From: Alphaproteobacteria bacterium
GTDB taxonomy: Bacteria > Pseudomonadota > Alphaproteobacteria > UBA828
Reading direction: 5' to 3'
Length of the DNA: 64,000 bases
Assembly: GCA_965243375.1 (NCBI GenBank)
Contig: CBDEUT010000006.1
Span: 64,131-128,130 of the forward strand
Of this stretch, positions 2,309 to 42,637 are shown piece by piece. Both the position numbers and the translations under genes were made by a program. The stretch's first letter is position 1, and each line of letters starts with the position of its first letter. Under the pieces are notes generated by a model, which worked only from the letters and a program-made list of their open reading frames with translations, did no database searches and was not told the origin of the DNA.

Positions 2309-3486
2309 CCGAGACCGACATTCCCGACCTGGGAGTGTCGGTCGCCCCTTTCCCCCTGCCGTTTCCGGCCCATTCGAGGATGGTGCCGAGGTCGCCATGG
2401 AGCGCGGCGGCCATCTCGCCGCGCTTCGCGCCGGGGGTGAGCACGATGCGCTCGATCAGCCCCCGGATCGCGTCCGCCGCCTCGTCGCGGTCGCGCGGGT
2501 CGGCCAGCGCCTCGGCCAGCCGCTCCACCTTGCGCCGGTAGACGGTGGCGATGTTCGGGTGGATGTCGGGAAGATCGACCGGAGCGGCTGACAGCCGTTC
2601 GGCGATCTCGTCCTGGCGGGCTTCCAGCTCGCGCAGCCTGTCGGACATGCCACGTACATAGCCGCCTTCCTCGATGGCCGCGATCATCGACGCGATCCGT
2701 TTCTCGATGTCGGCCAATTCCTTCCGGTCCGTCGCGCCCGACGCGCGCCGCTCGCGGTTGAGCCGGTTGGTCTCCTCGGCATACGCCGTCATCGCCTCGG
2801 CGGCGGCCTCGGGAGCCATCAGCTTCTCCCGGAGCCCCGCCATGACCCGCTCCTCGATCTCGACGCGCCGGACGGTCCGGCTGTTGGAACACGAACCCGA
2901 CATGATGTAGTTGGAACAGGCGTAGCGGTCCTGGCCGCGCTTGGCGTAGGAGCCGCCGCACATGCCGCACTCCAGAAGACCGGACAGCAGATAGCGGGGC
3001 CGGTGGGTGCTGTTGAGGTAGTTGGCCTGGGCCGCGCGGGTCGCCGCGATGGATGTGGCGTATTTCTCCGATATCTCGCCCTGCCGGGCCTTCGCCGCCT
3101 GCCACAGTTCGTCGTCCACGATGCGGAGTTCGGGAACCTCGACGATTATCCACTCCTCGGGCGGGTTGAGGCGCGCGACCCGCTTGCCGGTGTCGGGGTT
3201 CTTCAGGAAGCGCTGCCGGTTCCATACCAGCCGGCCGATATAGAGCTCGTTGTTGAGCAATCCGGTTCCCCGCTTCGCGTGGCCGCGCAGGACGGAATCG
3301 GTCCACAGCTTGCCGGATGCGCCGGGGATGCCGTCCTCGTTGAGACGCCGCGCGATGGCGCGCGGACTGGTGCCTTGCGCGAACTCCCGGAAGATGCGCC
3401 GGACGATCTCCGCCTCGGCCTCGTCGATCTCCCGCTCGCCCCGAATGCGCTCGCCGGCGGCGTCGTGCAGCTTCACCACGTCGTAG
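2265..3486 (-). pseudogene. large serine recombinase, C-terminal part (recombinase domain, zinc ribbon, coiled coil), separated from its N-terminal part by transposon copy A
   Basis: VVKLHDAAGERIRGEREI...LLECGMCGGSYAKRG...CSNY (zinc ribbon) followed by a long coiled-coil region. Rejoins in frame with 7867-8337 across the 4-bp duplication CTAC. The 3' end reads into the tRNA-like repeat. Confidence 0.75.
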
Positions 3487-3812
3487 TGTTGTTTCCCAGA
3501 TTAGCTGACCGCAGATTTGCCGGATTATTTCGCGCGGCGGCGAGGCGGATTTCCCACGCTGTTTGGTCATTGTCGGAAGGAAGAGAGGGGGTGGGGGGGT
3601 GTCGGCCGGCCGTCGGCGCGTCAAGCCGCTACGCGGCTCCTTCGCTGCGCTACGGCCCTTCGGGTGACCCGCCGCCGTCCGCCCGACTGAGTGCATCCAT
3701 GGCCGTAAGCGGAGCTTTCGGCCATGGGCCGATCGCTCGACGCCTTGTCGTGGCCGGAGCCTGACGAGCGGTTTGCGAGGGTGGTTCCCGTGAGCGGTTC
3801 CCCCTCGAACCC

Positions 3813-4865
3813 CTAGGGATGGGCGGAACCGGGAACCGGGAACCGGGCGTTGTCGGGGTGGCTGCCGTTGGCGGCCGGGGAGGCCTTTTCGGCCTGGCCC
3901 GCGGCGAGGCCGTAGTGCCCCTCGGCGTCGTGCCGGACGCGTCCTTCGCGGACGAGCTTTTTGAGGACGACGCCGACGGTCTTGTGCCGGGTCGCGGCGC
4001 GTTCGCGGATCTGGCGCTGCGACAGCGGCGTCCCGGCTTCGGCGAGCGCCTTGAGGATGCGCCGTTCGGCGGTTTCGGGCTCGGGCGCGGCCTCGGCAGT
4101 ATCCACTTGGCGGAGGCGCAGCGCGGGCCCCTTGCCGTCATCGGCGAGTTCGATCTCGATGTCATTGAGGCCGGGGGCGGCGCGGTGCTCGACGGTCATG
4201 ACGATCTGCCTGTCGCGTCGGCGCAGGTAGAGATTCGAATCGCCCCACGCGTGCAGTTCCGAGCTTCCGCGCAGGGCCTGGCCGGGCCTTGTGGCGCCGC
4301 TCTTGCGGGCGTGGTGGACGAGCAGGACGGCGGCTCCGAAGCGGCGCTGGATGTCGCGTAGGAAGCCGAGGATGGGGGCGACCTCGGCGACGGTGTTCTC
4401 GTCGACGCCGTGCAGCCGGACCAGGGGGTCGAGGACGACGAGGCGGGGCCGGATGCGTTGCACCGTCTCGACCAGCCGCCGGCGGTCGGCGCGATGATCG
4501 AGGCGCAGCGCGGGCACGTCGATGACTGCGATGTCGAGGCTCTCGAACCGGGCGCCTGCGGCGCTCGCGATACCCTGGAGCCGGGCACGCACGATGTGGC
4601 CGGCGTCCTCGGCGGCGAACAGCAGGACGGGTCCTGGCTCGTCGGCGGCGAAGCGGCGCAGGCAGGGGACGCCGGCGGCGACCGCGACGGCGAGGTCGAG
4701 CGCCAGGAAGGACTTGCCGCACTTGGGCTCGCCGCCGACGATGCCGACCGCCTGGCGCCCCCACAGCCCGTCGATGAGCCACTGCTGCTGGCGCGGCCGG
4801 TCCTCCAGCTCCACCGGCGCCCGCGTCGGGAAGCCGTTCGCCGCCGCGTCCCCGGTGCCGGTCAC
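3813..4865 (-). CDS. RecA-fold AAA_25 (RepA-like) ATPase with C-terminal winged-helix domain, transposon-encoded
   Basis: Walker A GIVGGEPKCGKSFLALDLAVAVAAG and Walker B-like RLVVLDPLVRLHG; LLVHHARKSG. C-terminal ERRILKALAEAGTPLSQRQIRERAA winged-helix-like. GTG start overlaps the stop of the upstream ATPase gene. Mirror of 32921-33973. Confidence 0.7.
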   Translation of the reverse strand: MTGTGDAAANGFPTRAPVELEDRPRQQQWLIDGLWGRQAVGIVGGEPKCGKSFLALDLAVAVAAGVPCLRRFAADEPGPVLLFAAEDAGHIVRARLQGIASAAGARFESLDIAVIDVPALRLDHRADRRRLVETVQRIRPRLVVLDPLVRLHGVDENTVAEVAPILGFLRDIQRRFGAAVLLVHHARKSGATRPGQALRGSSELHAWGDSNLYLRRRDRQIVMTVEHRAAPGLNDIEIELADDGKGPALRLRQVDTAEAAPEPETAERRILKALAEAGTPLSQRQIRERAATRHKTVGVVLKKLVREGRVRHDAEGHYGLAAGQAEKASPAANGSHPDNARFPVPGSAHP

Positions 4866-5662
4866 GGCTTGAGCTCCTCGATGGCATTCTGGAGGTGGCC
4901 GGCGTTGACCGTCTTCGCCTTCTCCAGGGCGGCGGCCGACAGCGCGTAGTGGGCGAGGCGGTTGACCTGGCGCGGCAGGCCGCGGGTTCCCTGGAACAGG
5001 GCCTCGACGGCGGCGTCCTCGAACAGCGGCAGCTCGCATCCGGCGAGGCGCAGGCGGTGGGTCAGATAGGCCTCGACCTCGTCGCGGTCGAGGCCGGTGA
5101 GGTGGTGGCGGACGACGACGCGCTGGGAGAGCGATTCGTGCACCGCCATCGACAGCCGCCGCCTGAGCTCGGTCAGCCCGACCAGGATCAGGCACATGCG
5201 GTTCTCGGAGTCCATCGCGAAGTTGGTCAGCAGGCGGAGGTCCTCCAGCACGTCGTTGCGCAGATGATGGGCCTCGTCGACGACCAGCACCGGGAACTGC
5301 CTGGCCTCGGTCGCGAGGCGCGAGATCTCGGTCCTGATCGCGTGGTGGGCCGAGGATCGCGAGCGCTCGACGGTGATGCCGATCTCCCAGGCGATGGACT
5401 TGTACATGTCGAGCACGTTGCCGGTGGTCAGCGAGACGTAGTGGACTCGGAACAGGCCGGGGTGGAGCTGGGCGGTAAGATGCCGGCACACGGTTGTCTT
5501 GCCGGCACCGACCTCACCGGTGAGCATGCCGATGCCCTTGAGCTCGATGAGGTGGCCGAGCCGGGCCTCGGCCTCGCGGCGCGCGCTGGATTCGAACAGC
5601 TCGTCGGTCTCCGCCACGGTCTCGAAGGGCATGCGGGTGAAGGCGAAGTGGCGCTGGTACAT
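4862..5662 (-). CDS. TniB/MuB/ExeA-like AAA+ ATPase (transposition helper)
   Basis: MYQRHFAFTRMPF...GIGMLTGEVGAGKTTVCRHL (Walker A) and VLVVDEAHHL (Walker B). ATG overlaps the transposase stop by 1 nt, with an AGGAGGA Shine-Dalgarno. Mirror of 32124-32924. Confidence 0.75.
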   Translation of the reverse strand: MYQRHFAFTRMPFETVAETDELFESSARREAEARLGHLIELKGIGMLTGEVGAGKTTVCRHLTAQLHPGLFRVHYVSLTTGNVLDMYKSIAWEIGITVERSRSSAHHAIRTEISRLATEARQFPVLVVDEAHHLRNDVLEDLRLLTNFAMDSENRMCLILVGLTELRRRLSMAVHESLSQRVVVRHHLTGLDRDEVEAYLTHRLRLAGCELPLFEDAAVEALFQGTRGLPRQVNRLAHYALSAAALEKAKTVNAGHLQNAIEELKP

Positions 5663-7023
5663 CAGTCGTCCTCCTTGAACTTGCGCATCTTGAGCGGCGA
5701 GGGCGGCGGCTCTGGGGCCGGGTCGTCGGGTTCGATCTTCTTGGAGTAGTGGCCGCGCTTCACCGCGGTGTTGGCGTAGGCGTCGAGGCGGGTTGCCTGG
5801 CCGACAGGCTTGCCGTCGTGCACCACGCCGAGCGGCCGCGACGGCGGCGCATCCGGGTCGTAGCGCAGCACCACCCTGTGGCCGACCAGCAGGGCGTCGA
5901 CCTCGTAGACGCGGCCGTTCAGGCTGACGGTGCGGTCCTTGTGGACCAGCCGCTTGGCCTCGAAGAGGAAGATATCGTCGAGGTCCAGCGTGGCGTCGGG
6001 GTAGCGGACCGCGGCCGAGGCGAGTGCCCATTGCTCGAGCGGGGTGCGCCCCTCAAGGCCGCGATGCGGACTGTTGTGATACTCGCCCTCGATCCACGCC
6101 CACAGGCTGCGGTTGAGCGTCTGGAGGCTGTCCAGGACCGGCGCATCGAGATGGGCGAGCCAGCCGGCGCGAAGCGTTCTGAACCACCGTTCGATCTTGC
6201 CCTTTCCCGCTGGTTGATACGGCCTGGCATGCACCAGCACGATGCCCAGCTTCGCGCAGATCAGGGCGAGCTGGCGGGAGCGGTAGGCGGCGCCGTTGTC
6301 GACATAGAGGCGCTGCGGCAGGCCGCGGCGGATCAGCGCGTTCTTGAACACGGGCAGGAAGGCCTGGACGCTCTCGGCCATGGCGAAGGCGGCGAAGGGC
6401 ACGACCCGGGTGGCGTCGTCGATGAAGGCGATCAGGTAGGTCTTGCGTCGGCTCCGGCCGTGCCGGACCTTCGGCCCGTGCATGACGTCGCTCATCCACA
6501 GCTCGCCGGCGTCCCGGAAGGCGAAGCGGCGGCGGTCGGCGCCGTCCGGCGGCTTGCCGTCGAACAGCCCCTCGCGGCTCAGCAGCCGGTGCACGGTGGA
6601 TGGAGCGAGCGGGTGATCGATGCCCTCCTCGACGGCCGCGCGGATGATCGCGCGCACCGGCCAGGTCGGGTTGTCGACCTTCAGCGTGACCAGGCGCTCG
6701 GCGACCTCGGCCGGCAGCCGCCGGGGCTTCCCGCGGTCGCTACGTGGTCTGGGGTAGAGCGCCTCGAAGCCGCCATCGCGATAATGCCTGATCCAGTCCC
6801 GCATGGTGTCGGCGGCGACACGGGTCCGGTCGGTTCCGGGGATGGCATAGGTCTGGCTCGCCTTCTCGCGAAGCTTGTCGCCGACGCCCTTGGCGCCCAT
6901 CGGCAGATGCACCAGATCGGCGATGACGCCGTATCGGAACAGCGCGATCGCCTGGCGAAGGTCGTCGTCGGATTCCTTCATGTCATGGTCCTCGTTGCTG
7001 GGGCTCTTCGGCCCCGGGACCAT
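5662..7023 (-). CDS. DDE transposase, Mu/Tn552 orf480/TniA-like (rve integrase core)
   Basis: 453 aa. N-terminal HTH-like region. Core WMSDVMHG...YLIAFIDDATR...LYVDNGAAYRS...HARPYQPAGKGKIERWF is the typical rve DDE catalytic domain. Mirror of 30763-32124. Confidence 0.8.
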   Translation of the reverse strand: MVPGPKSPSNEDHDMKESDDDLRQAIALFRYGVIADLVHLPMGAKGVGDKLREKASQTYAIPGTDRTRVAADTMRDWIRHYRDGGFEALYPRPRSDRGKPRRLPAEVAERLVTLKVDNPTWPVRAIIRAAVEEGIDHPLAPSTVHRLLSREGLFDGKPPDGADRRRFAFRDAGELWMSDVMHGPKVRHGRSRRKTYLIAFIDDATRVVPFAAFAMAESVQAFLPVFKNALIRRGLPQRLYVDNGAAYRSRQLALICAKLGIVLVHARPYQPAGKGKIERWFRTLRAGWLAHLDAPVLDSLQTLNRSLWAWIEGEYHNSPHRGLEGRTPLEQWALASAAVRYPDATLDLDDIFLFEAKRLVHKDRTVSLNGRVYEVDALLVGHRVVLRYDPDAPPSRPLGVVHDGKPVGQATRLDAYANTAVKRGHYSKKIEPDDPAPEPPPSPLKMRKFKEDD

Positions 7024-7027
7024 GACG

Positions 7028-7672
7028 CTACGCCGCCGCCGGAGGGGGATCAGGCCCCATCGAGTGTTGGAAGCCCGCCTTGCGACTCATCGTGCCGATT
7101 CCGTGGGGTTGGAAGCCCAATGGGGCGGGCAGCATCTGCAGTTGCTCAGACACCAGGCCACGCAGCGCCATCAAGGCGCTGTCGCTGTTGAGACGCTCGC
7201 GAACCGCCACCATGGTGGCCGCGCAGCCCGCCAGCCGGTCGGGGATCAGGCCGATGACACGGACAAGAACGTTGTGGACCAGGCGAAGCCGGTGGCGCAC
7301 CCAGCGCATCGCGCCGGGAAGCTCGATCGCGTCTTCGTCCTCGGGGCAGCGCACCTCGTTCGCTGCCTCCTCCAGGCTGCCGGCTTTCTCCGCCGCCACA
7401 ACAACCGCTTCCAGATCGTCGAGCGTGCCCGGCAGCCGCGACGACAGGCAGTCGGCCAGCATGCTGATCGTCGTATGGCTCTCACGGCAATACCAGCGGG
7501 GAACCTTCGCACCGGGCGGGGTCTTCCGCCCGTAGGTGCCGTGGCTGCCCACGGAACATCCGCCGTGCGGGTGATTCGGGCAGCGCTCAAGCCTTGCCTC
7601 GCGCCACGCCTCGGTCTTAACGTATTCCTCGCCGGTAAGCCCCGTCTCGTAACGAAGCTGCAAACCGGCCAT
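7028..7672 (-). CDS. Cys/His-rich hypothetical protein, first gene of the transposon operon
   Basis: 214 aa with a CPNHPHGGCSVGSHG...WYCRESH metal-binding-like motif. Ends 5 nt before the transposase start. A diverged homolog occupies the same position in copy C. Mirror of 30114-30758. Confidence 0.55.
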   Translation of the reverse strand: MAGLQLRYETGLTGEEYVKTEAWREARLERCPNHPHGGCSVGSHGTYGRKTPPGAKVPRWYCRESHTTISMLADCLSSRLPGTLDDLEAVVVAAEKAGSLEEAANEVRCPEDEDAIELPGAMRWVRHRLRLVHNVLVRVIGLIPDRLAGCAATMVAVRERLNSDSALMALRGLVSEQLQMLPAPLGFQPHGIGTMSRKAGFQHSMGPDPPPAAA

Positions 7673-7866
7673 GGCCCGGCGGGGATCAGCCCGTGCGGGC
7701 CTCTTCCTTGTTGTTCCTCGTCAGTCCGAGACTACGAAACCGCCCCGGCGACGCAAAGCCGCCAGGTCCACCCATCCCACGCTCGGCCACAATCCCGGGG
7801 AATTCACCGGCAGCCCAATGTGGGAAAAAAACCCGAGTTCCTATCGGGCTAAACCGCGAGACAACA

Positions 7867-8337: not shown

Positions 8338-8368
8338 GGTCCAGGGTCTCCTATCGGTCGTGCGCCGA

Positions 8369-13273: not shown

Positions 13274-15943
13274 ATGAGCGCGCCCGCATCGCGGGACCGC
13301 TCCCGCCCGCCGGCCTCCCCGCCTGAGTTTTCCGCCTCCGGCCGGCGCTGCGATACAGCCCGGTCCGCTTCTTCCTCCGACAGCTTCGGTTCTTCCTCCG
13401 CCCGCACGGCCGCGGGCGTCCGCCCTGCCGCCCGCAGCCTGCGGCGCGGCTTTGCCGCCGCGCTGCTCTGCCTGCCGCTGCTCGCCCCCTTCGCCCTGCC
13501 CGCCGCCGCGCAGACGGCGACGGCGTTCGTCAGCAACCTCGGTCAGACGACTATTTCTACCGAAGCTGAACTCAACGACGACGCCGCTCAGGATTTCACC
13601 ACCGGCCGCCACGCATCGGGCTACAAACTGACCGGCGTTGATATGGAATTCGGCACCGTAAGTCAGGCAGGCACCCATTCGACCTTCACCGTCGCCATCC
13701 ATGAAGATTCCAGCGGCAGTCCGGGCACCCTGGTCGGCACCCTGACGGTTCCCTCCATCTCGACGGGGAGCGACCAGACAATCAGCTTCGCGGCGTCCGG
13801 CGATGGCCTCGACCTTGCGCCGAACACCCGATACTGGATCGTGTTCGACGTTACCGCAGCCGGGATTGGTAGTGGTTCTGAAGGTTTGTCTCTTGTGACT
13901 GTGAACTCGGAGGATGCCGGCGCCGCGTCCGGCTGGGAAATCGGCAACAACTCACTTTATCGCAACTGGGATGCCAGCTCCTGGAATACCGACTCCAACA
14001 GCCTCCAGTTCCAGGTCAACGGCACGGCGAACCCCGTCGCCACCCTCTCCATAACCGCCCCTGGGGACGCAGCCGAGGGCAACGCGGACACGCGTGACCT
14101 GACCTTCACGGTGACCCTGAGCGAGCCGGTGTTGGTAACCGTCAGCTATCAGGTCTGCTTCTCGGGCACCGCGACCATCGATCTGACCGGTGCCGCGACG
14201 ATACCCGCCAGCGCGGATTACCAGCCTCGCTATGTTGCTGTGACCAACAACCCAAGCGCCTCGGCCTGCATCACCGGCGGGAACATCGCACCCGGGCAGG
14301 TCACCAGCAAACATGTCGGCATCCGCGTCAAGGGCGACACCGAGGGCGAGTTCGACGAGTCGGTGATCGCGACGCTGTCGTTTTTCGGCACCCCGCGTCC
14401 GGGCGTTGAGCTTGGCACGTCGGAGGCGACGCACTGGATCCGCGACGACGACGGTGCGGCGCTGACGCTCCGCTACGGCGCGGGGCGGGCCAACGCGCCG
14501 GAGGGCAGCACGACGGGGTACGGGGAGTTCTACCTGTACCCGTTCAACCGGGCGCTCGGCTCGGGCGAGACGGTGACCGTGCCGCTGTCCTTCACGGGCG
14601 GGACGCTGGGGACGGACTTCACGCTCTCGGTCGACCCCAACCACGGGTTCGCGTCGGCGGTGCTGAGCGGGAGCACGGTGACGATCACCGGCCCCGGGCC
14701 GAGGAGGCTGCTCTATCTGCGCGTCTTCGCGCCCGACGACACCGACACGACGGACGAGACTGTGACGCTGGGCGTCGGGGCGGCGACCAGCACCGTCGGC
14801 ACGGTCAGGCCCGACAAGCAAGGCAACGCCCAGGTCACGCTGTACGACGACGACGTCTCGCAGTCGCTCACGGTCGAGTTCACCCGGTCCGCGTTCACGG
14901 TCGACGAGCCCGACGATCCGTCGCAGCCGGTGCTGCGGCTCTCCGAGGTGCCGCGCAGCGACATCGCGATACCGGTGACGGTGAGCGACGGCACGGCGGT
15001 GCGCGGCGAGGACTATACGAGTGCGGCGACGCGGACCGTGACCTTCCCGGCCGGGAGTGCGGCGAGCCGGAGTTTCGATATCACGATCATCGACGACGCC
15101 GACTACGAGCCGGTCGACGAGACCTTCACGGTGGCCATCGACACTTCCTCGCTGCCCGCCGGGGTGACGGCGAAGGCGGGGGGCAACCTCCAGGCGACGG
15201 TGACCATCGTGAGCGAGGACCCGGAGGCGGACCCGATCTCCGACAGCGACTTCCTCGTCCTGGGGACCTTCGAGGAGCTCCAGTACGAGGAGCACGACCG
15301 CCGGGGCCCGGACTTCGCGGTGCACCGGCTGAGGAAGGCCAACAACGGCACCATCCCCGACGCCTGGGGGTTCCGGCTCTGCTTCGCCGGCACGGCGACC
15401 TGGGGCGCGGACTACCGGGTGAAGGCCCGCAACGGCAGGGTGCTGACGCTGGACGGCAACGGCTGCACGGCGCGCAACAGCGCGGCCTATGGCACCGCGG
15501 TGCCGGCGGGCAGCGACCGGTCGTGGTTCTCCGTCGAGCCCATCGACGACGCCCACGAGGATTCGGGCGAGACCATCGTGATCTCGGTCTCCAAGCCGTA
15601 CAACACCAACCTGTTCGGCGGCGGCCCGGCCGGCGAACCCAAGGTCAGCTACGGCAAGGACAGCCTCACCTTCGTCATCCTGAACCACGAGATCGTGGAG
15701 CATGCCAAGGCGGAGCCGGCGGTGCAGGTCTCCTCCGGGACCGGGGGCACGGAGGGCGAGGCGGTCCAGTTCACGCTCCAGGCGGTGCCGGCGCCGGCCT
15801 CGCCGTTCGACGTGACGCTGACGGTGAGCCAGGAGGGCGACCATGTGGCGGCAAAGGACCTCGGTCCGCGCACGGTGACGGTGCCCGTGAGCGGCACGGT
15901 GACGGTGAGCGTCCCGACGGTTGAGCGCGCTCTCGGTATCTGA
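13274..15943 (+). CDS. large secreted protein with Calx-beta repeats (surface or adhesin-like), possibly C-terminally truncated
   Basis: Signal-peptide-like RRGFAAALLCLPLLAPFALPAAAQTA. Repeated TFxxGxxxxxFxIxIxDDxxxExxExFTV Calx-beta motifs; Thr/Gly/Asp-rich. The stop lies immediately before the degenerate end of transposon copy C. Confidence 0.7.
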   Translation: MSAPASRDRSRPPASPPEFSASGRRCDTARSASSSDSFGSSSARTAAGVRPAARSLRRGFAAALLCLPLLAPFALPAAAQTATAFVSNLGQTTISTEAELNDDAAQDFTTGRHASGYKLTGVDMEFGTVSQAGTHSTFTVAIHEDSSGSPGTLVGTLTVPSISTGSDQTISFAASGDGLDLAPNTRYWIVFDVTAAGIGSGSEGLSLVTVNSEDAGAASGWEIGNNSLYRNWDASSWNTDSNSLQFQVNGTANPVATLSITAPGDAAEGNADTRDLTFTVTLSEPVLVTVSYQVCFSGTATIDLTGAATIPASADYQPRYVAVTNNPSASACITGGNIAPGQVTSKHVGIRVKGDTEGEFDESVIATLSFFGTPRPGVELGTSEATHWIRDDDGAALTLRYGAGRANAPEGSTTGYGEFYLYPFNRALGSGETVTVPLSFTGGTLGTDFTLSVDPNHGFASAVLSGSTVTITGPGPRRLLYLRVFAPDDTDTTDETVTLGVGAATSTVGTVRPDKQGNAQVTLYDDDVSQSLTVEFTRSAFTVDEPDDPSQPVLRLSEVPRSDIAIPVTVSDGTAVRGEDYTSAATRTVTFPAGSAASRSFDITIIDDADYEPVDETFTVAIDTSSLPAGVTAKAGGNLQATVTIVSEDPEADPISDSDFLVLGTFEELQYEEHDRRGPDFAVHRLRKANNGTIPDAWGFRLCFAGTATWGADYRVKARNGRVLTLDGNGCTARNSAAYGTAVPAGSDRSWFSVEPIDDAHEDSGETIVISVSKPYNTNLFGGGPAGEPKVSYGKDSLTFVILNHEIVEHAKAEPAVQVSSGTGGTEGEAVQFTLQAVPAPASPFDVTLTVSQEGDHVAAKDLGPRTVTVPVSGTVTVSVPTVERALGI

Positions 15944-16200
15944 TGGCGCGGTGATCGGTTTGTTTGATGGGCATCGTTCGCGGCTGGTGGGGTGACCGGG
16001 GGTGTCGGACGGCCGTCGGCGGGTCAAGCCGCTACGCGGCTCCTCCGCTTCGCTCCGGCCCTTCGGGTGACCCCCCGCCGTCCATCCGACGGAGTGCATC
16101 CATGGCCGTAAGCAAGCTTCCGGCCACGGGCCGATCGCTCGACGCAGTGCGGCAACGGGGGCTGGCGAGGGGTGTTACCCGTTACCGTTACCCTGCCTCC

Positions 16201-16767
16201 CTAGGGGTTCGAGGCGGTAACGGTTTTCGGTAACGCGTCGTTGCGGCCCGCGTGGTTGACGGCGGCCGGCGGCGCCGCGTTTTCGGCGGCGAGGCGGTAA
16301 CCGCCCTGGGGTGCGCGTTCGACGCGCCCGGCGCGGACGAGCTTGCTCAGCGCTTCGGCGACGGTTGCGGGCCGGGTTGCCGCGCGCTCGCGGATCTGGC
16401 GCTGCGAGAGCGGTGCATCGGCGTCGGCGAGGGCTTGGAGGATGCGCCGTTCGGGTGTTTCCGGCTCCGGCGCGGCCTCGGCCGGCACCGGCCGCCGCAA
16501 GCGCAGGGCGGGTCCCTCGCCGTCATCGGCGAGTTCGATCTCGATGTCGGCGAGGCCTGGAGCGGCGCGATGCTCGACGGTCATGACGATCTGCTTGTCG
16601 CGGCGGCGCAGATAGAGGTTGCTGTCGCCCCAGGCATGGAGCTCGGACGACCCCCTGAGCGCCTGGCCCGGCCGGCTGGCACCGCTCTTGCGGGCATGGT
16701 GGACGAGCAGGACGGCGGTCTCGAAGCGGCGCTGGAGGTCGCGCAGGAAGCCGAGTATGGGAGCGAC
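16201..16767 (-). pseudogene. AAA_25 RecA-like ATPase gene of copy C, C-terminal fragment (split by IS66)
   Basis: APILGFLRDLQRRFETAVLLVHHARKSG... near-identical to the C-terminal half of the copy A/B protein. Confidence 0.7.
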
Positions 16768-16877
16768 GTAAGCATCCGGCGGGGACCGTCTGTGCGATAA
16801 GCTGAAAATCGGCGAGTGTTCGCGATCGGTGGTGGGCACCGTGGTGCCCACCGTGGAGCAGACGGAGGCGATCGCGG

Positions 16878-17282
16878 ATGTCGAATGAACAGCAGGCGAA
16901 TTTGGGTGCCGAGGCCGAGGCCGGGAAACGCCGCCGGGCCCGGAAGTGGAGCGACGCCGACAAGCGGCGGATCGTTGCGGAGAGCTACGCGCCCGGCGCC
17001 ACGGTGACGGCGGTGGCGAAGCGCAACGACGTGCGCGCCAATCTGGTGTTCGATTGGCGACGTCGGTTTCGCGAGGAGGATGGCGAGGCCGGGGGCGGCG
17101 GGTTCGTGCCGGTGATTGTCACGCCGTCGGGCGATGCACCGCCGGAGGACGGCTACTTCGGCGCAGCGCCGGCGGCCGGGCGGATCGAGATCGCGCTTTC
17201 CGGTGGCGTGCGGGTGACGGTTGACGGAACGGTGGATGCCCCTGCGCTGGCGCGGGTGCTTGCGGTCGTGGAGCGCCGATGA
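16878..17282 (+). CDS. tnpA: IS66 TnpA (Orf1)
   Basis: 134 aa; ...RRIVAESYAPGATVTAVAKRNDVRANLVFDWRRRF... typical IS66 Orf1. Confidence 0.85.
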   Translation: MSNEQQANLGAEAEAGKRRRARKWSDADKRRIVAESYAPGATVTAVAKRNDVRANLVFDWRRRFREEDGEAGGGGFVPVIVTPSGDAPPEDGYFGAAPAAGRIEIALSGGVRVTVDGTVDAPALARVLAVVERR

Positions 17283-17626
17283 TCCCGGTCCCGGGCAGCG
17301 TGCGGGTGTGGTTGGCGACCGGGGTGACGGACATGCGCCGTGGCATGAACACGCTGGCGCTTCAGGTTCAGGAGGGTCTCGGCCGCGATCCCCACGCGGG
17401 GGATCTCTACGTGTTCCGCGGACGCCGCGGCGATCTCGTCAAAATTTTGTGGCATGACGGTCTCGGGTTCTCGCTCTACGCCAAGCGCCTGGAGCGGGGC
17501 CGGTTCACTTGGCCGTCGGCATCGGGCGGCGCACTGTCGATCAGCTCGGCGCAGCTCGCCTACCTGCTTGAGGGGATCGAGTGGCGCAACCCGGTTCGCA
17601 CTTGGCGCCCGTCGCGGGTGGGCTGA
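17279..17626 (+). CDS. tnpB: IS66 TnpB (Orf2)
   Basis: 115 aa; MIPVPGSVRVWLATGVTDMRRGMNTLA...DLYVFRGRRGDLVKILWHDGLGFSLYAKRLERGRF; 4-nt overlap with tnpA. Confidence 0.85.
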   Translation: MIPVPGSVRVWLATGVTDMRRGMNTLALQVQEGLGRDPHAGDLYVFRGRRGDLVKILWHDGLGFSLYAKRLERGRFTWPSASGGALSISSAQLAYLLEGIEWRNPVRTWRPSRVG

Positions 17627-17693
17627 GGCCGGGCGAATCACCCTGCGCGATTGGCAATTGCCGTGAGGCTGCGAATCTGATTCATTCCCGGCC

Positions 17694-19280
17694 ATGACGG
17701 TCACGGCCCGACGCGACGTTGAAACTCTCGAGGCGGCGCTTGCGGCCTCGGAGGCTCGGGCAACGGCGGCCGAGGAGCAGATCACCTCGCTGAAGCTGAT
17801 GGTCGAGAAGCTGCGCCGTGCGCTCTACGGGCAGCGCTCGGAGCGCACGGTGCGTCTCCTCAACCAACTGGAGCTTGCGCTCGACGAGCTGACGGCGGAC
17901 GCGACGGAGGACGATCTCGCGGCCGAGCAAGCCGCGGCCGAGACCACCCAGGTCAAGGGGTTCACGCGCCGCAAGCCGTCGCGCAAGCCCTTCCCCGAGC
18001 ATCTGCCGCGCGAGCGGGTGGTGGTTCCTGCACCGACATCGTGCGCGTGCTGCGGGTCGGAGCGGCTGTCGAAGATCGGCGAGGACGTGACCGAGACGCT
18101 TGAGGTGATCCCGCGCCGGTGGAAGGTGATCCAGACGATCCGCGAGAAGTTCACCTGCCGCGATTGCGAGAAGGTCTCGCAGCCGCCGGCGCCGTTCCAC
18201 GCGGTGCCGCGAGGTTGGGCGGGTCCGAACCTTCTGGCGACGATCGTGTTCGAGAAATATGGCCAGCACCAGCCGTTGAACCGGCAGCGCGAGCGCTACG
18301 CGCGCGAGGGGGTCGACCTGAGCCTGTCGACGCTGGCCGATCAGGTCGGGGCCTGCGCCGTGGCGCTGAAACCGCTGCATGACCTGATCGCCGATCACGT
18401 GCTTGCGGCCCGGCGCTTGCACGGCGACGACACTCCCGTCCCGGTGCTGGCCAAGGGCAAGACCGTCACCGGGCGGGCTTGGGCCTATGTGCGTGACGAC
18501 AGGCCGTTCGGCGGTCCGGATCCGCCGGCCGTGCTGTTCCGATACTCCCGCGACCGTTCGGGCAATCACCCGGTCGAGCACCTGAAGACCTTTGCCGGGG
18601 TGCTTCAAGCCGATGCCTATGCTGGCTTCAACCGGCTCTATGTGCCGGGCCGCTCGCCGGGAGCCGTGATCGAGGCCCTGTGCTGGGCTCACAGTCGGAG
18701 GAAGTTCTACGAGCTTGCCGATATCGCGGCGAGCAAGAGGCGCGGCGAGCAGGCGCCGCCGATCTCGCCGCTGGCGATGGAGGCGGTGAAGCGGACCGAC
18801 GCGCTGTTCGACATCGAACGCGAGATCAACGGCAAGAGTGCCGATCAGCGCCTTGCCGTGCGCCGGGAGGCGAGCGCGCCGCTCGTCGCCGATCTCGAGG
18901 ACTGGATGCGCACGGAGCGTGCCAGGCTGTCGCGCCACGCCTCTGTCGCCAAGGCGATGGATTACATGCTCAGACGCTGGGACGGCTTCACCCGTTTCCT
19001 CGATGACGGCCAGATCTGCCTCACGAACAACGCTGTCGAGAGGGCGCTTCGGGTCATCGCTTTGGGACGAAAATCCTGGCTGTTCTGCGGCTCCGATCGC
19101 GGCGGAGTGCGGGCGGCGGCGATGTACACCCTCATCGGCACCGCCAAGCTCAACGATGTCGATCCCCAGGCCTGGCTCGCCGATGTTCTCGGACAGATTG
19201 CCGATCTGCCGCAAAGCGACCTGCACCAGCTCCTGCCCTGGAACTGGAAGACAGCCCAGCACCAGGCCCTGGCCGCCTAA
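17694..19280 (+). CDS. tnpC: IS66 transposase TnpC
   Basis: 528 aa with leucine zipper, CxxC...CxxC zinc finger (CACCGSERL...CRDCEKV), DDE core and conserved C-terminal region. Confidence 0.9.
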   Translation: MTVTARRDVETLEAALAASEARATAAEEQITSLKLMVEKLRRALYGQRSERTVRLLNQLELALDELTADATEDDLAAEQAAAETTQVKGFTRRKPSRKPFPEHLPRERVVVPAPTSCACCGSERLSKIGEDVTETLEVIPRRWKVIQTIREKFTCRDCEKVSQPPAPFHAVPRGWAGPNLLATIVFEKYGQHQPLNRQRERYAREGVDLSLSTLADQVGACAVALKPLHDLIADHVLAARRLHGDDTPVPVLAKGKTVTGRAWAYVRDDRPFGGPDPPAVLFRYSRDRSGNHPVEHLKTFAGVLQADAYAGFNRLYVPGRSPGAVIEALCWAHSRRKFYELADIAASKRRGEQAPPISPLAMEAVKRTDALFDIEREINGKSADQRLAVRREASAPLVADLEDWMRTERARLSRHASVAKAMDYMLRRWDGFTRFLDDGQICLTNNAVERALRVIALGRKSWLFCGSDRGGVRAAAMYTLIGTAKLNDVDPQAWLADVLGQIADLPQSDLHQLLPWNWKTAQHQALAA

Positions 19281-19443
19281 GCCGGACCTCACCAGAGACA
19301 CCGTCTTCCCTGCGGCCGAGGCCGCGTCTCTGCGCGGTCCACCGTGAGCGTCACCGTGGGGCTGAGCGTCACTCGCCTGCCCACCTTGGAACTCCCCGTC
19401 ACGTTCCGCGATTCACCGTCTGCGGTCCCCGCCGGATGCTTAC

Positions 19444-19910
19444 GGAGCGACCTCGGCGACGGTGTTTTCATCGACGCCGTGCAGGCGGACCAGGGGGTCG
19501 AGGACCACGAGGCGTGGCGCGATGCGCTGCACGGTCTCGCGCAGACGCTGCCGGTCGTTGGCATGGTCGAGGCGCAGGATGGGAGCGTCGATGACGGCGA
19601 TGTCGAGCGTCTCGAAGCTGGCGCCGGCTGCCCGGGCGATGCCCTCAAGCCGGGCGCGCACGATGTGGCCGGCGTCCTCGGCCGCGAACAGCAGGACCGG
19701 TCCGGGCTGTTTGGCGGCGAAGCGGCGCAGACAGGGAACGCCGGCGGCGACGGCCACGGCGAGGTCCAGAGCCAGGAAGGATTTGCCGCACTTGGGTTCG
19801 CCGCCGACGATGCCGACGGCTTGGCGTCCCCAGAGGCCGTCGACCAGCCACTGCTGCCGGCTCGGGCGGTCCTCAAGGTCGGCCGGGCTTCGGGTCGGGA
19901 AGCCCTTCAC
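19444..19910 (-). pseudogene. AAA_25 RecA-like ATPase gene of copy C, N-terminal fragment (split by IS66)
   Basis: MKGFPTRSPADLEDRPSRQQWLVDGLWGRQAVGIVGGEPKCGKSFLALDL...; ends at the IS66 boundary. Confidence 0.7.
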
Positions 19911-20740
19911 CGGCGCGCTCTCCTGGTCTTGGTGGGCTCCCCCCAGGTCTCCAGGAAGAGCTTTTCGTCGAGCACTTCACGATCCTGATCGGCGCCGGCG
20001 GCGAGCAGCGCATCGGCCATGACGGTGAGCGTCCTGGGGTTGCCGCCGGCATGGGCGACGAGGGTGTCCTTGAGGCCGGCGGTCATCAGGGCGGGGTTGC
20101 CGGCCTCCTCCAGCAGGTGGTCGAGGAGGCGCAGTAGATCCTCGTCTTCGGGACGCGTCATGAGGAGGCGCTGGCGGATGCGGGAGTCGATGGGATGCAG
20201 CTCCGGCGTGCGCAGTTTTGCGAGCAGCCGGTTGTCACCGGCCAGCACCACGCCAAGGATGGTGCGCGAGTCGAAGTCGGTCGAGGAGAGCAGGCGCATC
20301 TCGGTCAGCACCGCGTTGGGCAGCTCCTGTGCCTCGTCGACCAGCAGGAGTGGGCGCATGCGCGTGTCGTCGAGGTGGTCGAGCCAGCGCTGCCGCAGTC
20401 CCTTGATCCCATTCCAGCGATTGTTGTGGGCCATGGTGATGGCGAAGCGGTCGGAGATCTCGTGGTAGAAGTCGGCGACGCTGGAGGACGGATGGGTGAG
20501 GACCGCGACGCTCAACCTGTCGATGCGCTCAAGGCGCTCGGCGAGCAACCGCAGCGCCACGCTCTTGCCGATGCCGGGCGGGCCGCCGATCAGGGCGAAG
20601 CCGCCCTGGCGCACCAGATGCCGTTCGACCCTGCGGCAGAAGTTCTCGACGGCGGGTGTGGTCATCAGGCCATCGACCGGGAGGTCGGTGGAGAAGGGGT
20701 TCCACTTGAGGCCGTACAGCGTGAGCATTTCGCGGTTCAT
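19907..20740 (-). CDS. TniB/MuB-like AAA+ ATPase, copy C paralog
   Basis: MNREMLTLYGLKWNPF...ALIGGPPGIGKSVALRLL...LLVDEAQELP; same architecture as 4862-5662, diverged. Confidence 0.7.
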   Translation of the reverse strand: MNREMLTLYGLKWNPFSTDLPVDGLMTTPAVENFCRRVERHLVRQGGFALIGGPPGIGKSVALRLLAERLERIDRLSVAVLTHPSSSVADFYHEISDRFAITMAHNNRWNGIKGLRQRWLDHLDDTRMRPLLLVDEAQELPNAVLTEMRLLSSTDFDSRTILGVVLAGDNRLLAKLRTPELHPIDSRIRQRLLMTRPEDEDLLRLLDHLLEEAGNPALMTAGLKDTLVAHAGGNPRTLTVMADALLAAGADQDREVLDEKLFLETWGEPTKTRRARR

Positions 20741-22254: not shown

Positions 22255-22264
22255 GTAGAGCGCC

Positions 22265-22879: not shown

Positions 22880-22988
22880 TGGGGCCGTCTCAGGTTGATA
22901 TCACCGTCACCGAGACAAGCCCTCCGGCGGCCTTCATGCAAGATCGCCGGGGGGCAACCACCCCAAATCCTCGATTAATTCGAGCGGA

Positions 22989-23204
22989 TCAGCCCTGATT
23001 CCCCGCTGAAATTCTGCGCCCTCTCACCGGGTCGTGCCGGCCGTTGGCGGGTCCCCGGTAGTTGTAACGGAACCCGTAATGCTGCACGCGGCGGCTGAGA
23101 TCGGTGAGCCAGGGGGCCTGGGAGATGCGCAGCAGGATGCGCTCTTCCTCGGCCTCGGTGATGACGTCGGGCACCAGCGCGGCGCCGTGATCGAAGATGC
23201 TCAT
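22989..23204 (-). pseudogene. N-terminal fragment of AlkB-like 2OG-Fe(II) oxygenase
   Basis: VPDVITEAEEERILLRISQAPWLTDLSRRVQHYGFRYNY matches the AlkB-family N-terminal region. The reading frame ends after about 65 aa, close to the approximate end of copy C. No HxD...H core follows. Confidence 0.4.
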
Positions 23205-29919: not shown

Positions 29920-30113
29920 TGTTGTCTCGCGGTTTAGCCCGATAGGAACTCGGGTTTTTTTCCCACATTGGGCTGCCGGTGAATTCCCCGGGATTGTGGC
30001 CGAGCGTGGGATGGGTGGACCTGGCGGCTTTGCGTCGCCGGGGCGGTTTCGTAGTCTCGGACTGACGAGGAACAACAAGGAAGAGGCCCGCACGGGCTGA
30101 TCCCCGCCGGGCC

Positions 30114-30758: not shown

Positions 30759-30762
30759 CGTC

Positions 30763-42620: not shown

Positions 42621-42637
42621 GGTGGCAGCGTGCCGGG

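What the first reader, a model, noticed from the sequence alone, without database searches (positions are those of the whole stretch)
3487..7866. Apparently undescribed four-gene transposon with a RecA-fold AAA_25 ATPase, present in three copies
A 4380-bp unit with TGTTGT...ACAACA imperfect terminal inverted repeats and 4-bp target duplications (GTAG for copy A, CAGG for copy B). It encodes, in one operon, a Cys/His-rich 214-aa protein, a 453-aa Mu/Tn552-like DDE transposase, a 266-aa TniB/MuB-like AAA+ ATPase and a 350-aa RecA-fold AAA_25 (RepA-like) ATPase with a C-terminal winged helix. Gene boundaries overlap, indicating translational coupling. The transposase plus ATPase core resembles Tn552 or Tn5053, but I do not recognise the flanking Zn-binding protein and RecA-like ATPase from described transposon families. 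A RecA-fold ATPase could act in target selection or in copy-out replication. Two copies are 100% identical and a third is diverged, so this is an active family.
Basis: partly seen in the sequence, partly recalled or inferred. Interest (0 to 1): 0.8.

Follow-up and report, generated by a model that had tools for sequence, protein, structure and literature searches.

The report
Tn6049-like transposon carrying a helicase module
This is a real, active four-gene jumping gene whose three core genes belong to an already named but unstudied transposon type (Tn6049), and whose unusual extra is a swappable end module holding a replication-type helicase and a conserved hairpin-rich DNA/RNA motif that unrelated insertion sequences also carry.

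Summary
The 4380-bp unit is real. It has TGTTGT...ACAACA ends and 4-bp target duplications (GTAG, CAGG). Removing copy A restores a serine recombinase gene. Two copies are identical.

The "third copy" is a different lineage. Its three core proteins match Tn6049 at 40-50% but match copy A only at 25-27% or not at all. It shares only gene 4 and about 215 nt downstream, and an IS66 disrupts it.

The core is a Zn-ribbon/HTH protein, a Mu/TnsB-like DDE transposase and a MuB/ExeA-like AAA+ ATPase. This is the architecture of Tn6049 and many unnamed three-gene elements, so gene 1 is a divergent DUF6431 protein and not new.

Gene 4, an RSF1010-RepA-like ATPase with a winged helix, is a lineage-specific accessory. 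It is always linked to the transposon (80/80 genome loci) and under purifying selection. Two lineages have exchanged it. One relative carries a Toprim primase-like gene in the same slot.

Next to gene 4 lies an undescribed 148-nt structured motif with strong covariation, GNA mini-hairpins and no Rfam match. It also sits inside IS30- and IS110-type elements and near a plasmid origin.

Best reading: an accessory replication (helicase plus priming-signal) module. This is inferred, not shown.

The parts
3487..7866 (-). Copy A of the four-gene transposon (4380 bp), inserted in a serine recombinase gene
3483..3486 (.). Target-site duplication GTAG (second copy at 7867-7870)
   Evidence: removing the element plus 4 bp restores a 593-aa ORF
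7848..7866 (-). Left terminal inverted repeat TGTTGTCTCGCGGTTTAGC (gene-1 side)
3487..3505 (-). Right terminal inverted repeat (reverse complement TGTTGTTTCCCAGATTAGC)
7830..7850 (-). Terminator-like hairpin plus T-run inside the left end. It could block read-in transcription. The block is conserved among type-A elements.
7028..7672 (-). g1, 214 aa: Zn-ribbon (C31-x2-H34, C39, H44, C62, H66) plus helical HTH-like domain; a divergent DUF6431-type protein
5662..7023 (-). g2, 453 aa: DDE transposase (HTH_32, rve, Mu-transpos_C), TnsB/MuA-like
4862..5662 (-). g3, 266 aa: AAA_22 (ExeA/GspA-like) AAA+ ATPase, MuB-like
3813..4865 (-). g4, 350 aa: RSF1010-RepA-like RecA-fold ATPase (AAA_25) plus C-terminal winged helix
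3596..3743 (-). 148-nt structured motif (model R1): a three-way junction with GNA triloops inside a long closing stem, plus a 5' hairpin
29920..34299 (+). Copy B, 100% identical and inverted; TSD CAGG at 29916-29919 and 34300-34303. Genes: g1 30114-30758, g2 30763-32124, g3 32124-32924, g4 32921-33973. Motif at 34043-34190.
15922..23026 (-). Copy C: an element of the Tn6049-proper lineage (ends TGAGAG...CGCTCA) carrying the same g4 module; disrupted by IS66; no clean TSD
22265..22879 (-). Copy C g1', 204 aa: CxxC Zn-ribbon plus HTH_23; 40% identical to Tn6049 ORF1
20737..22254 (-). Copy C g2', 505 aa: DDE transposase; 50% identical to the Tn6049 transposase
19907..20740 (-). Copy C g3', 277 aa: AAA_22 ATPase; 49% identical to Tn6049 GspA
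16201..19910 (-). Copy C g4', split into an N-terminal part (19440-19910) and a C-terminal part (16201-about 16770) by an IS66-family insertion (transposase 17694-19280, + strand)
15999..16145 (-). Structured motif of copy C

Best explanation
The unit is an autonomous DDE transposon of the Tn6049 superfamily. Shown by sequence: it has a Mu/TnsB-like DDE transposase (g2) and a MuB/ExeA-like AAA+ ATPase (g3). It has a small Zn-ribbon/HTH DNA-binding protein (g1) that always precedes them in this superfamily. It has TGT...ACA ends with several conserved subterminal blocks, and staggered target cuts that leave 4-6-bp (mostly 5-bp) duplications at unrelated sites. Inferred from Mu, Tn7, Tn552 and IS21: g2 cuts and joins the 3' ends, g3 captures and presents target DNA and regulates g2, and g1 binds DNA as an end- or target-recognition or regulatory partner. 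The novelty is a swappable accessory module at the right end. It consists of g4, a RepA(RSF1010)-like, probably hexameric, ATPase fused to a winged helix, and a 148-nt hairpin-rich motif built from GNA mini-hairpins. I propose, as inference, that this module serves the DNA-synthesis step of transposition, meaning replication of the strand-transfer or copy-out intermediate. The motif would act as a single-strand initiation (priming or loading) signal. g4 would act as an element-encoded helicase, making the element less dependent on host restart proteins across many phyla.
For: Transposon status. Two identical copies have different TSDs, and an empty site can be reconstituted. There are dozens of near-identical copies per genome at unrelated sites in MAGs. 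Among the copies scored, the TSD was 5 bp in 42, 4 bp in 16 and 6 bp in 2. One pair of copies has swapped TSD halves, the signature of an inversion between copies.

Core homology. g2 hits TnsB (E 2e-6) and a PHROG transposase family (E 4e-44). g3 hits MuB 8xvb (E 3e-4) and the PHROG 'DNA transposition protein' family (E 5e-30). g1 matches DUF6431-type proteins with hhalign probability 96.7%. The same gene order occurs in Tn6049, pBB2, pGS18 and an Acidithiobacillus caldus plasmid.

All four genes have dN/dS of 0.2-0.4.

g4 as a helicase. The only PDB sequence hit is the RSF1010 RepA hexameric helicase (E 3.8e-10), with Walker A, Walker B, the HHA(R/S)K motif and the RGSS arginine-finger region aligned. 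PHROG hits are primase-helicase and DnaB-like families, and phage homologues are annotated as primase/helicase.

g4 as part of the element. In 80 of 80 genome loci g4 follows the element's g3. It is 80% identical between two lineages whose core proteins are only about 25% identical, and the shared DNA includes the motif.

The slot holds replication functions more than once. A related element with a 5-bp TSD carries a DUF3991/Toprim primase-like gene in the same position.

Motif. 34 of 47 pairs show compensatory changes; 92% of cells are paired against 73% after shuffling. It is the best conserved stretch of the element at 93-97% nt identity. It has invariant C-G-closed GNA triloops. It folds as ssDNA with z = -5.35. 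Such mini-hairpins are known in ssDNA priming signals, including RSF1010 ssiA, which works with the RepA helicase (PMC13037366). The motif core also lies about 220 bp from the iterons of a 4-kb Rep_3 plasmid.
Against: No function was tested; the replication role is inference.

Three-gene relatives without g4 or the motif are themselves multi-copy. Tn6049 has 12 copies in CH34 (PMC2864759), so the module is not needed for transposition as such. One type-A element (L033) lacks the motif.

The helicase-type elements encode no primase, and the element has no resolvase.

The motif's orientation relative to the nearest element end differs between the g4 transposons and the IS30/IS110 elements.

G.U (43) versus A.C (26) counts do not settle strand or chemistry, so an RNA role is not excluded.

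The g4 structure model is poor (pLDDT 57). It matches KaiC, Rad51 and DnaB about as well as RepA.

The plasmid-origin association rests on one plasmid.
Confidence: 0.5

Rival explanations
1. g4 (with or without the motif) is cargo, not part of the transposition machinery. It could be an addiction, defence, anti-defence or host-benefit gene that hitch-hikes in the variable slot at the right end.
For: The slot is variable across the superfamily: empty, a 65-133-aa ORF, a Toprim protein, or g4. g4 moved between lineages as a cassette. Three-gene relatives transpose without it (PMC2864759).
Against: g4 overlaps g3 by GTGA in a coupled operon. Linkage is 80/80 and no stand-alone close homologues were seen. 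There are no PADLOC or NCBIfam hits. Its relatives are replication helicases. The alternative occupant of the slot is also a replication-type protein, Toprim.
Confidence: 0.22
2. g4 is a target selector or regulator. It would be a RecA-fold ATPase with a winged helix that directs or restrains insertion, analogous to TnsD/TnsE/TniQ or to target immunity, rather than a helicase working in replication.
For: Heteromeric transposons of this kind typically add a target-selection protein. g4 has a DNA-binding winged helix. Many insertions lie in mobile or conjugative DNA: a serine recombinase gene, TraG, and regions beside relaxases and other IS.
Against: The TSDs and flanks show no common target sequence. 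There is no similarity to TniQ, TnsD or TnsE. The three-gene relatives also insert at diverse sites. The g4 motifs are those of translocating hexameric helicases.
Confidence: 0.13
3. The 148-nt motif works as RNA, not as single-stranded DNA. It could be a 3'-UTR or stand-alone ncRNA that stabilises or terminates transcripts, insulates the element from outside transcription, or regulates transposition.
For: In the g4 transposons it lies on the coding strand 70 nt after the g4 stop codon. The RNA fold gives z = -3.2 on the sense strand against -2.0 on the antisense strand. G.U pairs (43) slightly outnumber A.C pairs (26). The covariation is as strong as in curated RNA families.
Against: It is antisense to the transposase gene in the IS30- and IS110-type carriers. 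The wobble content is very low, at 2.8% of paired cells. The three triloops are GNA closed by C-G, the DNA mini-hairpin signature, and not GNRA or UNCG (PMC13037366). There is no U-tract after the structure. There is no Rfam match.
Confidence: 0.3
4. The motif is a bridge/seek-RNA-like guide, as in the IS110 family, and the element is RNA-guided.
For: The motif lies inside IS110-type elements downstream of the DEDD transposase gene. It is about the size of a bridge RNA.
Against: Its core sequence is invariant across three unrelated IS families and isolated copies. There are no element-specific loops matching ends or targets. By the GNA strand it is antisense to the IS110 transposase. The g4 transposons insert at unrelated sequences.
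Confidence: 0.03

Closest known systems
Tn6049 (Cupriavidus metallidurans CH34; also on Pseudomonas aeruginosa pHS87a)
   Same: Same gene order: small Zn-ribbon/HTH protein, DDE transposase, GspA/ExeA-like AAA_22 ATPase. Ends are TGT...ACA. TSD is 4 bp on pHS87a (PMC4739549) and 5 bp (TATGG) on pMOL28. It is multi-copy. Window copy C is 40/50/49% identical to its three proteins; copy A g2 and g3 are 27-28% identical.
   Different: Tn6049 is 3.5 kb. It has only a 71-aa fourth ORF, no AAA_25 gene and no R1 motif. Its mechanism has never been studied, so the name explains little.
Unnamed 'DUF6431 + DDE + AAA ATPase' elements on plasmids (C. necator pBB2, Geobacillus pGS18, Acidithiobacillus caldus mpAca1.1)
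   Same: These are the closest sequenced relatives of copy A's core: g2 is 40% identical and g3 31-35% identical. The three-gene order is the same.
   Different: Their g1 has canonical CxxC knuckles; copy A has CxxH / Cx3H variants. They have no g4 and no motif.
Mu (MuA/MuB), Tn552, Tn5053/Tn402 (TniA/TniB/TniQ), Tn7 (TnsB/TnsC)
   Same: They combine a DDE transposase carrying the Mu-type C-terminal domain with an AAA+ partner. They have TG...CA ends with several internal binding blocks and about 5-bp TSDs.
   Different: There is no resolvase or res site, no TnsA and no TniQ/TnsD. The ATPase falls in AAA_22/ExeA rather than the TniB or TnsC families. A Zn-ribbon/HTH gene sits upstream. None of these elements encodes a helicase.
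RSF1010 (IncQ) replication module: RepA helicase, ssiA/ssiB and RepB' primase
   Same: g4's only solved homologue by sequence is RepA. The adjacent motif contains C-GAA-G / GCGNAGC mini-hairpins like ssiA (PMC13037366). The idea is host-independent unwinding and priming.
   Different: g4 has an added winged helix. The helicase-type element has no primase and no RepC/iteron system. The motif is 148 nt with a three-way junction, far larger than the 40-nt ssiA. Function is untested.
IS481 family (ISfinder / NCBIfam NF033577)
   Same: It is the best NCBIfam model for g2 (213 bits). RefSeq labels the relatives this way.
   Different: The score is below the family cut-off of 224. IS481 members are about 1-kb single-gene IS without an ATPase partner.

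Membership tests
Tn6049-type transposons | DDE transposase homologous to the Tn6049 transposase | tested here: met
   Copy C g2' is 50% identical (E 3e-149). Copy A g2 is 27% identical (E 1e-26).
Tn6049-type transposons | GspA/ExeA-like AAA_22 ATPase gene directly after, and coupled to, the transposase gene | tested here: met
   AAA_22 E 2e-25; TGATG overlap. 28% (copy A) and 49% (copy C) identical to Tn6049 GspA.
Tn6049-type transposons | Small Zn-ribbon/HTH (DUF6431-like) gene upstream of the transposase | tested here: met
   hhalign probability 96.7%, E 3.5e-10 between the g1 family and a set of DUF6431 proteins plus copy-C-type g1'. Copy C g1' is 40% identical to Tn6049 ORF1.
Tn6049-type transposons | TGT...ACA imperfect terminal repeats and short (4-5 bp) target duplications | tested here: met
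   PMC4739549.
Tn6049-type transposons | About 3.5 kb, with no large fourth gene | tested here: not met
   The element is 4380 bp with a 350-aa AAA_25 gene and a 148-nt motif. Tn6049 has a 71-aa ORF in that place.
IS481 family | Transposase reaches the NCBIfam NF033577 cut-off | tested here: not met
   213.3 bits against a cut-off of 224 for g2; 109 bits for copy C g2'.
IS481 family | Single-gene IS of about 1 kb | tested here: not met
   Four coupled genes, 4.4 kb.
Tn5053/Tn402 and Tn552 families | Resolvase and res site (TniR / BinL); TniQ for Tn5053 | tested here: not met
Tn5053/Tn402 and Tn552 families | TniB/p271-type ATPase | tested here: inconclusive
   Pfam gives AAA_22 and not TniB. 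There is weak MuB similarity (E 3e-4) and a PHROG 'DNA transposition protein' hit (E 5e-30).
DUF6431 (PF20020), for g1 | Match to the Pfam model | tested here: inconclusive
   g1 itself gets no hit even at E 10. 8 of 38 family members hit weakly, best E 0.006. The profile-profile match is significant.
RepA (RSF1010)-type hexameric helicases, for g4 | RecA-fold core with Walker A, Walker B, the HHA(S/R)K motif and the RGSS arginine-finger region | tested here: met
   Residue-level alignment to 1g8y, E 3.8e-10. These columns are invariant in 31 homologues.
RepA (RSF1010)-type hexameric helicases, for g4 | Hexamer formation and 5'-3' unwinding | not testable with these tools
   The model is of low confidence (pLDDT 57). 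Fold hits do not discriminate RepA from KaiC, Rad51 or DnaB.
Single-strand initiation (ssi) signals / DNA mini-hairpins, for the motif | C-G-closed GNA triloop mini-hairpins within a stable ssDNA fold | tested here: met
   GAA is invariant in one loop. GNA occurs in the other two loops and in both strands of an internal loop. ssDNA fold z = -5.35. The definition is from PMC13037366.
Single-strand initiation (ssi) signals / DNA mini-hairpins, for the motif | Supports primer synthesis or helicase loading on ssDNA | not testable with these tools
   Needs an M13 origin-deleted ssi assay or in vitro priming.
Any Rfam family, for the motif | Covariance-model match | tested here: not met
   Nothing above noise at E up to 10 on 271 nt, both strands.
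IS110-family bridge/seek RNA, for the motif | Element-specific guide loops complementary to donor ends and target | tested here: not met
   The core and loops are invariant across IS110-, IS30- and g4-associated copies and isolated copies.

The most novel reading that the evidence does not exclude
The right-end slot of these DDE transposons holds portable replication-initiation modules: a RepA-like helicase with a new class of single-strand initiation signal in one lineage, and a Toprim primase in another. The same 148-nt ssDNA signal has been captured independently by IS30- and IS110-type elements. On this reading, copy-out or replicative transposons of unrelated families solve the problem of replicating their transposition intermediate with a shared, exchangeable cis element, sometimes backed by their own replisome protein.
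Probability: 0.3. Interest if true: 0.8.

Novelty: new variant of a known kind. Interest (0 to 1): 0.62.

Why it matters
How transposons that need DNA synthesis recruit a replisome to their intermediate is understood in detail only for Mu, through host PriA-dependent restart. This applies to replicative, Mu-like elements and to copy-out-paste-in elements such as IS3, IS30 and IS110.

This DDE transposon family places a replicative-type helicase or a Toprim primase-like protein in one swappable slot. It pairs the helicase with a conserved hairpin motif that IS30- and IS110-type elements also carry. That gives a concrete, testable handle on the question.

The family is also very successful. Some uncultured Alphaproteobacteria carry 18 or more copies per genome. 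Close relatives occur in Acidobacteria, Chloroflexota/Dehalococcoidia, Poribacteria, Acidimicrobiales and Gemmatimonadota MAGs. It is therefore relevant to genome plasticity in those organisms.

Independently of the mechanism, the 148-nt motif is a well-supported structured nucleic-acid family with no Rfam counterpart.

If the module turns out to be mere cargo, the finding reduces to a new member-rich branch of the Tn6049 group.

Tried and rejected
- Near-identity DNA search of the whole element against 72,556 plasmids found nothing.
- g4 tblastn against plasmids gave nothing at 1e-5 and only fragments at E up to 1, so no annotated plasmid carries the four-gene form.
- NCBIfam and PADLOC gave nothing for g1 or g4. 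A defence-system reading has no support.
- Pfam gave nothing for g1 directly. The question was settled only by profile-profile comparison.
- The afdb50 fold library was unavailable.
- The g4 structure came out at low confidence from a shallow alignment, so fold hits add little beyond the sequence hit.
- Literature searches for AAA_25/AAA_22 transposons, ExeA+IS481, a MuB/TniB/IstB+helicase combination, DUF6431 and DUF3991 found no description of such an element.
- The C. necator pBB2 element was checked as a possible Tn6049 copy. It is a different branch.
- The motif as a known RNA: no Rfam hit.
- The motif as a bridge RNA, or as a mere IS target site: rejected. It lies inside the IS30- and IS110-type elements and its core does not vary with the carrier.
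- A sigma-70 promoter scan found nothing in the element.
- ISfinder and TnCentral could not be queried.

Full report
**1. The observation**

Window 3487-7866 is a discrete 4380-bp unit. An exact inverted copy lies at 29920-34299 (the tool's 4381 nt includes one chance base). Read on the gene strand, the unit starts TGTTGTCTCGCGGTTTAGC and ends with the complement of TGTTGTTTCCCAGATTAGC, so about 15 of 19 terminal bases are inverted-repeated. Copy A is flanked by GTAG on both sides and copy B by CAGG.

Copy A sits in a serine-recombinase gene. Removing the element plus 4 bp restores one 593-aa ORF, whereas removing 3 or 5 bp does not restore the frame. The junctions are TAG-4 nt-ATG for g1/g2, TGATG preceded by AAGGAGG for g2/g3, and GTGA for g3/g4. 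These fit one translationally coupled operon.

**2. The 'third copy' is a different element**

The repeat finder linked 16286-16767 and 19444-19917 to copy A at 79-84% identity. That region is a second four-gene element on the minus strand, at 15922-23026. Its ends are TGAGAG...CGCTCA.

Its proteins relate to copy A as follows:
- The Zn-ribbon/HTH protein (204 aa) shows no BLAST similarity.
- The transposase (505 aa) is 25% identical.
- The ATPase (277 aa) is 27% identical.

The g4 of this lineage, read from the complete metagenomic element L005, is 80% identical to copy A's g4. DNA similarity between the two lineages covers g4 and about 215 nt downstream, and stops about 110 nt before the right end.

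In the window this element's g4 is split by an IS66-family insertion. I found no clean target duplication. I call the finding's element type A and this one type C.

**3. Both types are real, active families**

g4 has thousands of homologues above 70% identity in public assemblies. Contigs carrying them show the full four-gene cassette of either type at many unrelated places. Examples include an insertion inside a traG gene and sites next to relaxases, integrases and other IS.

A scan of one genome per GTDB species found 327 loci. All 80 retrieved loci have the element's own g3 directly upstream of g4: 43 of type A and 37 of type C. The hosts are almost all uncultured. They are mainly Alphaproteobacteria MAGs, plus Acidobacteria, Poribacteria, Dehalococcoidia/Chloroflexota and Acidimicrobiales. 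Some genomes hold 10 to at least 18 copies.

Target duplications across these copies:

| Type | 5 bp | 4 bp | 6 bp | None |
|---|---|---|---|---|
| A | 23 | 5 | 1 | 5 |
| C | 19 | 11 | 1 | 6 |

The duplicated sequences have nothing in common. Two type-A copies in one contig carry each other's half-duplications (CCCTC/CGGGG), which marks an inversion by recombination between copies. Between diverged type-A elements all four genes have dN/dS of 0.2-0.4.

**4. What the core is**

- **g2** has HTH_32, rve and Mu-transpos_C domains. It hits TnsB and IS21 IstA structures and a PHROG transposase family at E 4e-44. It scores just under the NCBIfam IS481 cut-off (213 against 224 bits).
- **g3** is an AAA_22 (ExeA/GspA-like) ATPase. 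It shows weak but specific similarity to MuB (8xvb, E 3e-4) and hits the PHROG 'DNA transposition protein' family at E 5e-30.
- **g1** has no Pfam hit, but its family is large: 948 clusters at 50% identity. Conserved residues are CPxH, C39, H44 and C62. A profile of the family matches a small set of DUF6431 proteins and type-C g1' proteins with 96.7% probability (E 3.5e-10). The match lies over the Zn-ribbon, where the usual CxxC knuckles are replaced by CxxH and Cx3H. Eight of 38 members weakly hit PF20020.

**5. The core is a known type**

Protein searches of plasmids found the same order on C. necator pBB2, Geobacillus pGS18 and an Acidithiobacillus caldus megaplasmid: a DUF6431 protein, a DDE transposase and an AAA ATPase. 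These are about 40% (g2) and 31-35% (g3) identical to copy A.

The named representative is Tn6049 of C. metallidurans CH34. It is 3.5 kb and present in 12 copies, 'all carrying the same ATPase gene, gspA' (PMC2864759). It has 12-bp imperfect repeats TGTGCaTaAGCA and 4-bp direct repeats on pHS87a (PMC4739549).

I located Tn6049 on pMOL28 (L014 22252-25768, 3517 bp). There it has a 5-bp duplication, TATGG. It encodes a 181-aa ORF, a 479-aa transposase, a 277-aa ATPase and a 71-aa ORF. Window copy C is 40, 50 and 49% identical to its first three proteins. Copy A is a more distant branch at 27-28%.

So the Zn-binding gene is a standard core gene, and the element is a Tn6049-superfamily transposon. 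None of these relatives has an AAA_25 gene.

**6. Gene 4**

g4's only sequence match among solved structures is the hexameric helicase RepA of RSF1010 (E 3.8e-10). The alignment runs through Walker A (GEPKCGKS), Walker B (LVVLD), HHARK and RGSS, which corresponds to the arginine-finger region. These columns are invariant among homologues. PHROG matches are the helicase halves of primase-helicases and DnaB-like helicases. Phage homologues are annotated likewise.

The C-terminal 55 residues form a winged helix, with weak MarR_2 and Z-alpha similarity. The structure model is poor (pLDDT 57). Its fold hits (KaiC, Rad51, DnaB, RepA) only confirm the RecA superfamily; RepA is best by target-normalised TM and identity.

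g4 trees do not separate cleanly by element type. Between-type identity (65-80%) is close to within-type identity. The cassette has therefore moved between lineages whose core genes are only about 25% identical.

**7. The fourth slot is variable**

I followed distant g1 homologues to their contigs:
- One element (L191 5768-9753; 3986 bp; TGTTGT...ACAACA ends; 5-bp TSD CATGC) carries a 280-aa DUF3991/Toprim_2 protein where g4 would be.
- One has three genes only.
- Two have an overlapping 133-aa ORF of unknown family.

Together with the 65-71-aa ORFs of pBB2 and Tn6049, this shows that g1-g2-g3 are the conserved core. Slot 4 is an accessory position, and twice it holds a replisome-type protein.

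**8. A structured motif travels with g4 and is not confined to it**

The stretch after g4 is the best conserved part of the element, at 93-97% nt identity where synonymous sites have diverged by 0.2-0.45. Twenty distinct versions fold into a common structure of 47 pairs. Of these, 98% of cells pair and 7 pairs show compensatory changes; no shuffle out of 500 reached this. There is no Rfam match.

A covariance model finds the motif only in the three elements of the window. It is absent from Tn6049, pBB2, pGS18 and the Toprim variant.

An exact-core scan of metagenome contigs gave 92 stretches, of which 80 were retrieved as loci. Only 12 of these have g4 upstream, and 41 with enough upstream sequence do not. 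Most of those 41 match the full model. On that diverse set, 34 of 47 pairs have changes on both sides, and 92% pair against 73% when shuffled. The alignment was fitted to the model, which inflates the pairing figure somewhat.

Contexts of the motif:
- 16 loci carry it inside an IS30-type element. It lies about 40 nt from the terminal repeat ...GTTCAAGTTTGAACTGCAACAC, next to the 3' end of the transposase gene on the other strand.
- 16 loci carry it inside an IS110-type element, whose end reads CTAACTCT.GCGCTACCTTTAGG.
- Some are solo right ends of g4 transposons.
- Others are isolated between unrelated genes.

The core also occurs on a 4-kb Agrobacterium Rep_3 plasmid, about 220 bp from its 21-bp iterons.

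**9. DNA or RNA?**

Wobble pairs are rare: 43 G.U against 26 A.C among 1554 paired cells. Pairing statistics therefore hardly distinguish the strands.

The loops are asymmetric. One triloop is always GAA. Two more are GNA, and an internal loop is GNA opposite GNA. All are closed by C-G pairs: CCC-GAA-GGG, GC-GNA-GC and GCNGC-GNA-GCNGC. This is the signature of the extraordinarily stable DNA mini-hairpins d(GCGNAGC). A recent review lists these in ssDNA priming and transcription signals. Its examples are the phage G4 complementary-strand origin, RSF1010 ssiA (CCGAAGG, bound by primase RepB') and phage N4 virion-polymerase promoters (PMC13037366).

As ssDNA the motif folds with z = -5.35. As RNA, the sense strand of a longer segment gives z = -3.2.

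I therefore favour a single-stranded-DNA role, but an RNA role is not excluded. A bridge-RNA-like guide is unlikely, because the core does not vary with the carrier.

**10. Mechanism proposed**

Shown: the element is an autonomous, currently active DDE transposon with a Mu-like transposase, an AAA+ partner and a DNA-binding Zn-ribbon protein. It makes 4-6-bp duplications without sequence preference.

Inferred by analogy: the division of labour among g1-g3.

Hypothesis (about 0.4-0.5): g4 and the motif form an RSF1010-like unwinding-plus-priming module that helps replicate the transposition intermediate. Four observations favour it:
- the helicase homology of g4;
- the ssi-like hairpins of the motif;
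- co-transfer of the two as one cassette;
- a Toprim protein in the same slot of a sister element.

The occurrence of the motif in IS30 and IS110 elements also fits. From general knowledge, not tested here, these families are thought to move through replicated circular copies.

Five observations count against it:
- three-gene relatives thrive without the module;
- the helicase-type element has no primase or resolvase;
- the motif's orientation relative to the nearest end differs between carriers;
- one type-A element lacks the motif;
- nothing has been tested.

**11. Verdict**

The interpretation 'undescribed four-gene transposon' is half right.

The frame is Tn6049-like and gene 1 is ordinary for that frame. 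Gene 4 and the adjacent motif are, as far as the available libraries and papers show, undescribed. They make this a new variant of a known kind, with a testable and fairly interesting mechanistic implication.

ISfinder and TnCentral could not be consulted.

Noticed in passing
window 3596-3743 (-), 34043-34190 (+), 15999-16145 (-); loci L095-L174, L188 448-494: A 148-nt structured motif with no Rfam match. It has strong covariation and GNA mini-hairpins. It is shared by the g4 transposons, IS30-type and IS110-type elements, isolated intergenic copies and one small Rep_3 plasmid, where it lies near the iterons.
   Followed up: partly
L191 5768-9753: A sister transposon with the same ends and a 5-bp TSD (CATGC). 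It carries a 280-aa DUF3991/Toprim_2 primase-like gene in the slot where the window element has the RepA-like helicase.
   Followed up: partly
window about 16770-19440 (transposase 17694-19280, + strand): An IS66-family element inserted inside the AAA_25 gene of copy C, splitting it into two ORFs (19440-19910 and 16201-16851).
   Followed up: partly
window 2265-3486 and 7867-8427 (- strand): A large serine recombinase gene (593 aa when rejoined), interrupted by copy A.
   Followed up: yes
window 10834-12452 and 62382-64000: A 1619-nt perfect inverted repeat that includes a tyrosine-integrase ORF (11063-12259). It may be another duplicated mobile element or the arms of an invertible segment.
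   Followed up: no
window 35203-39738, 41035-42663, 45927-48554, 52314-54371, 890-2131: The surroundings look like an integrative or conjugative element. They include an AAA_34/Helicase_C_4 (Strawberry-notch-like) 1511-aa protein, RadC, a ParB_N protein, a DUF2201 metallopeptidase/VWA protein and a further tyrosine integrase. Similar neighbours recur next to copies in the metagenome loci L005 and L011.
   Followed up: no
window 13274-15943 (+): An 889-aa Calx-beta repeat protein whose ORF runs into the right end of copy C. The gene may be truncated by that insertion.
   Followed up: no
L039 and L049 (MAG CBDCRW contig_4): Two type-A copies in inverted orientation carry swapped halves of their target duplications (CCCTC / CGGGG). 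This indicates an inversion of about 48 kb by homologous recombination between the copies.
   Followed up: partly
window 7830-7850 (- strand); conserved in type-A left ends: A terminator-like hairpin followed by a T-run lies 17-45 nt inside the left end. It is positioned to stop transcription entering the element from outside.
   Followed up: partly
protein P0064 (597 aa): A called protein that fuses AAA_22 and AAA_25 domains, meaning g3 and g4 in one frame. It may be a real fusion or a frameshift or annotation artefact.
   Followed up: no
L033; L034/L035: Type-A elements in which the structured motif is deleted (L033, a Dehalococcoidia MAG) or truncated (L034/L035, which look like a segmental duplication, not two insertions).
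   Followed up: partly
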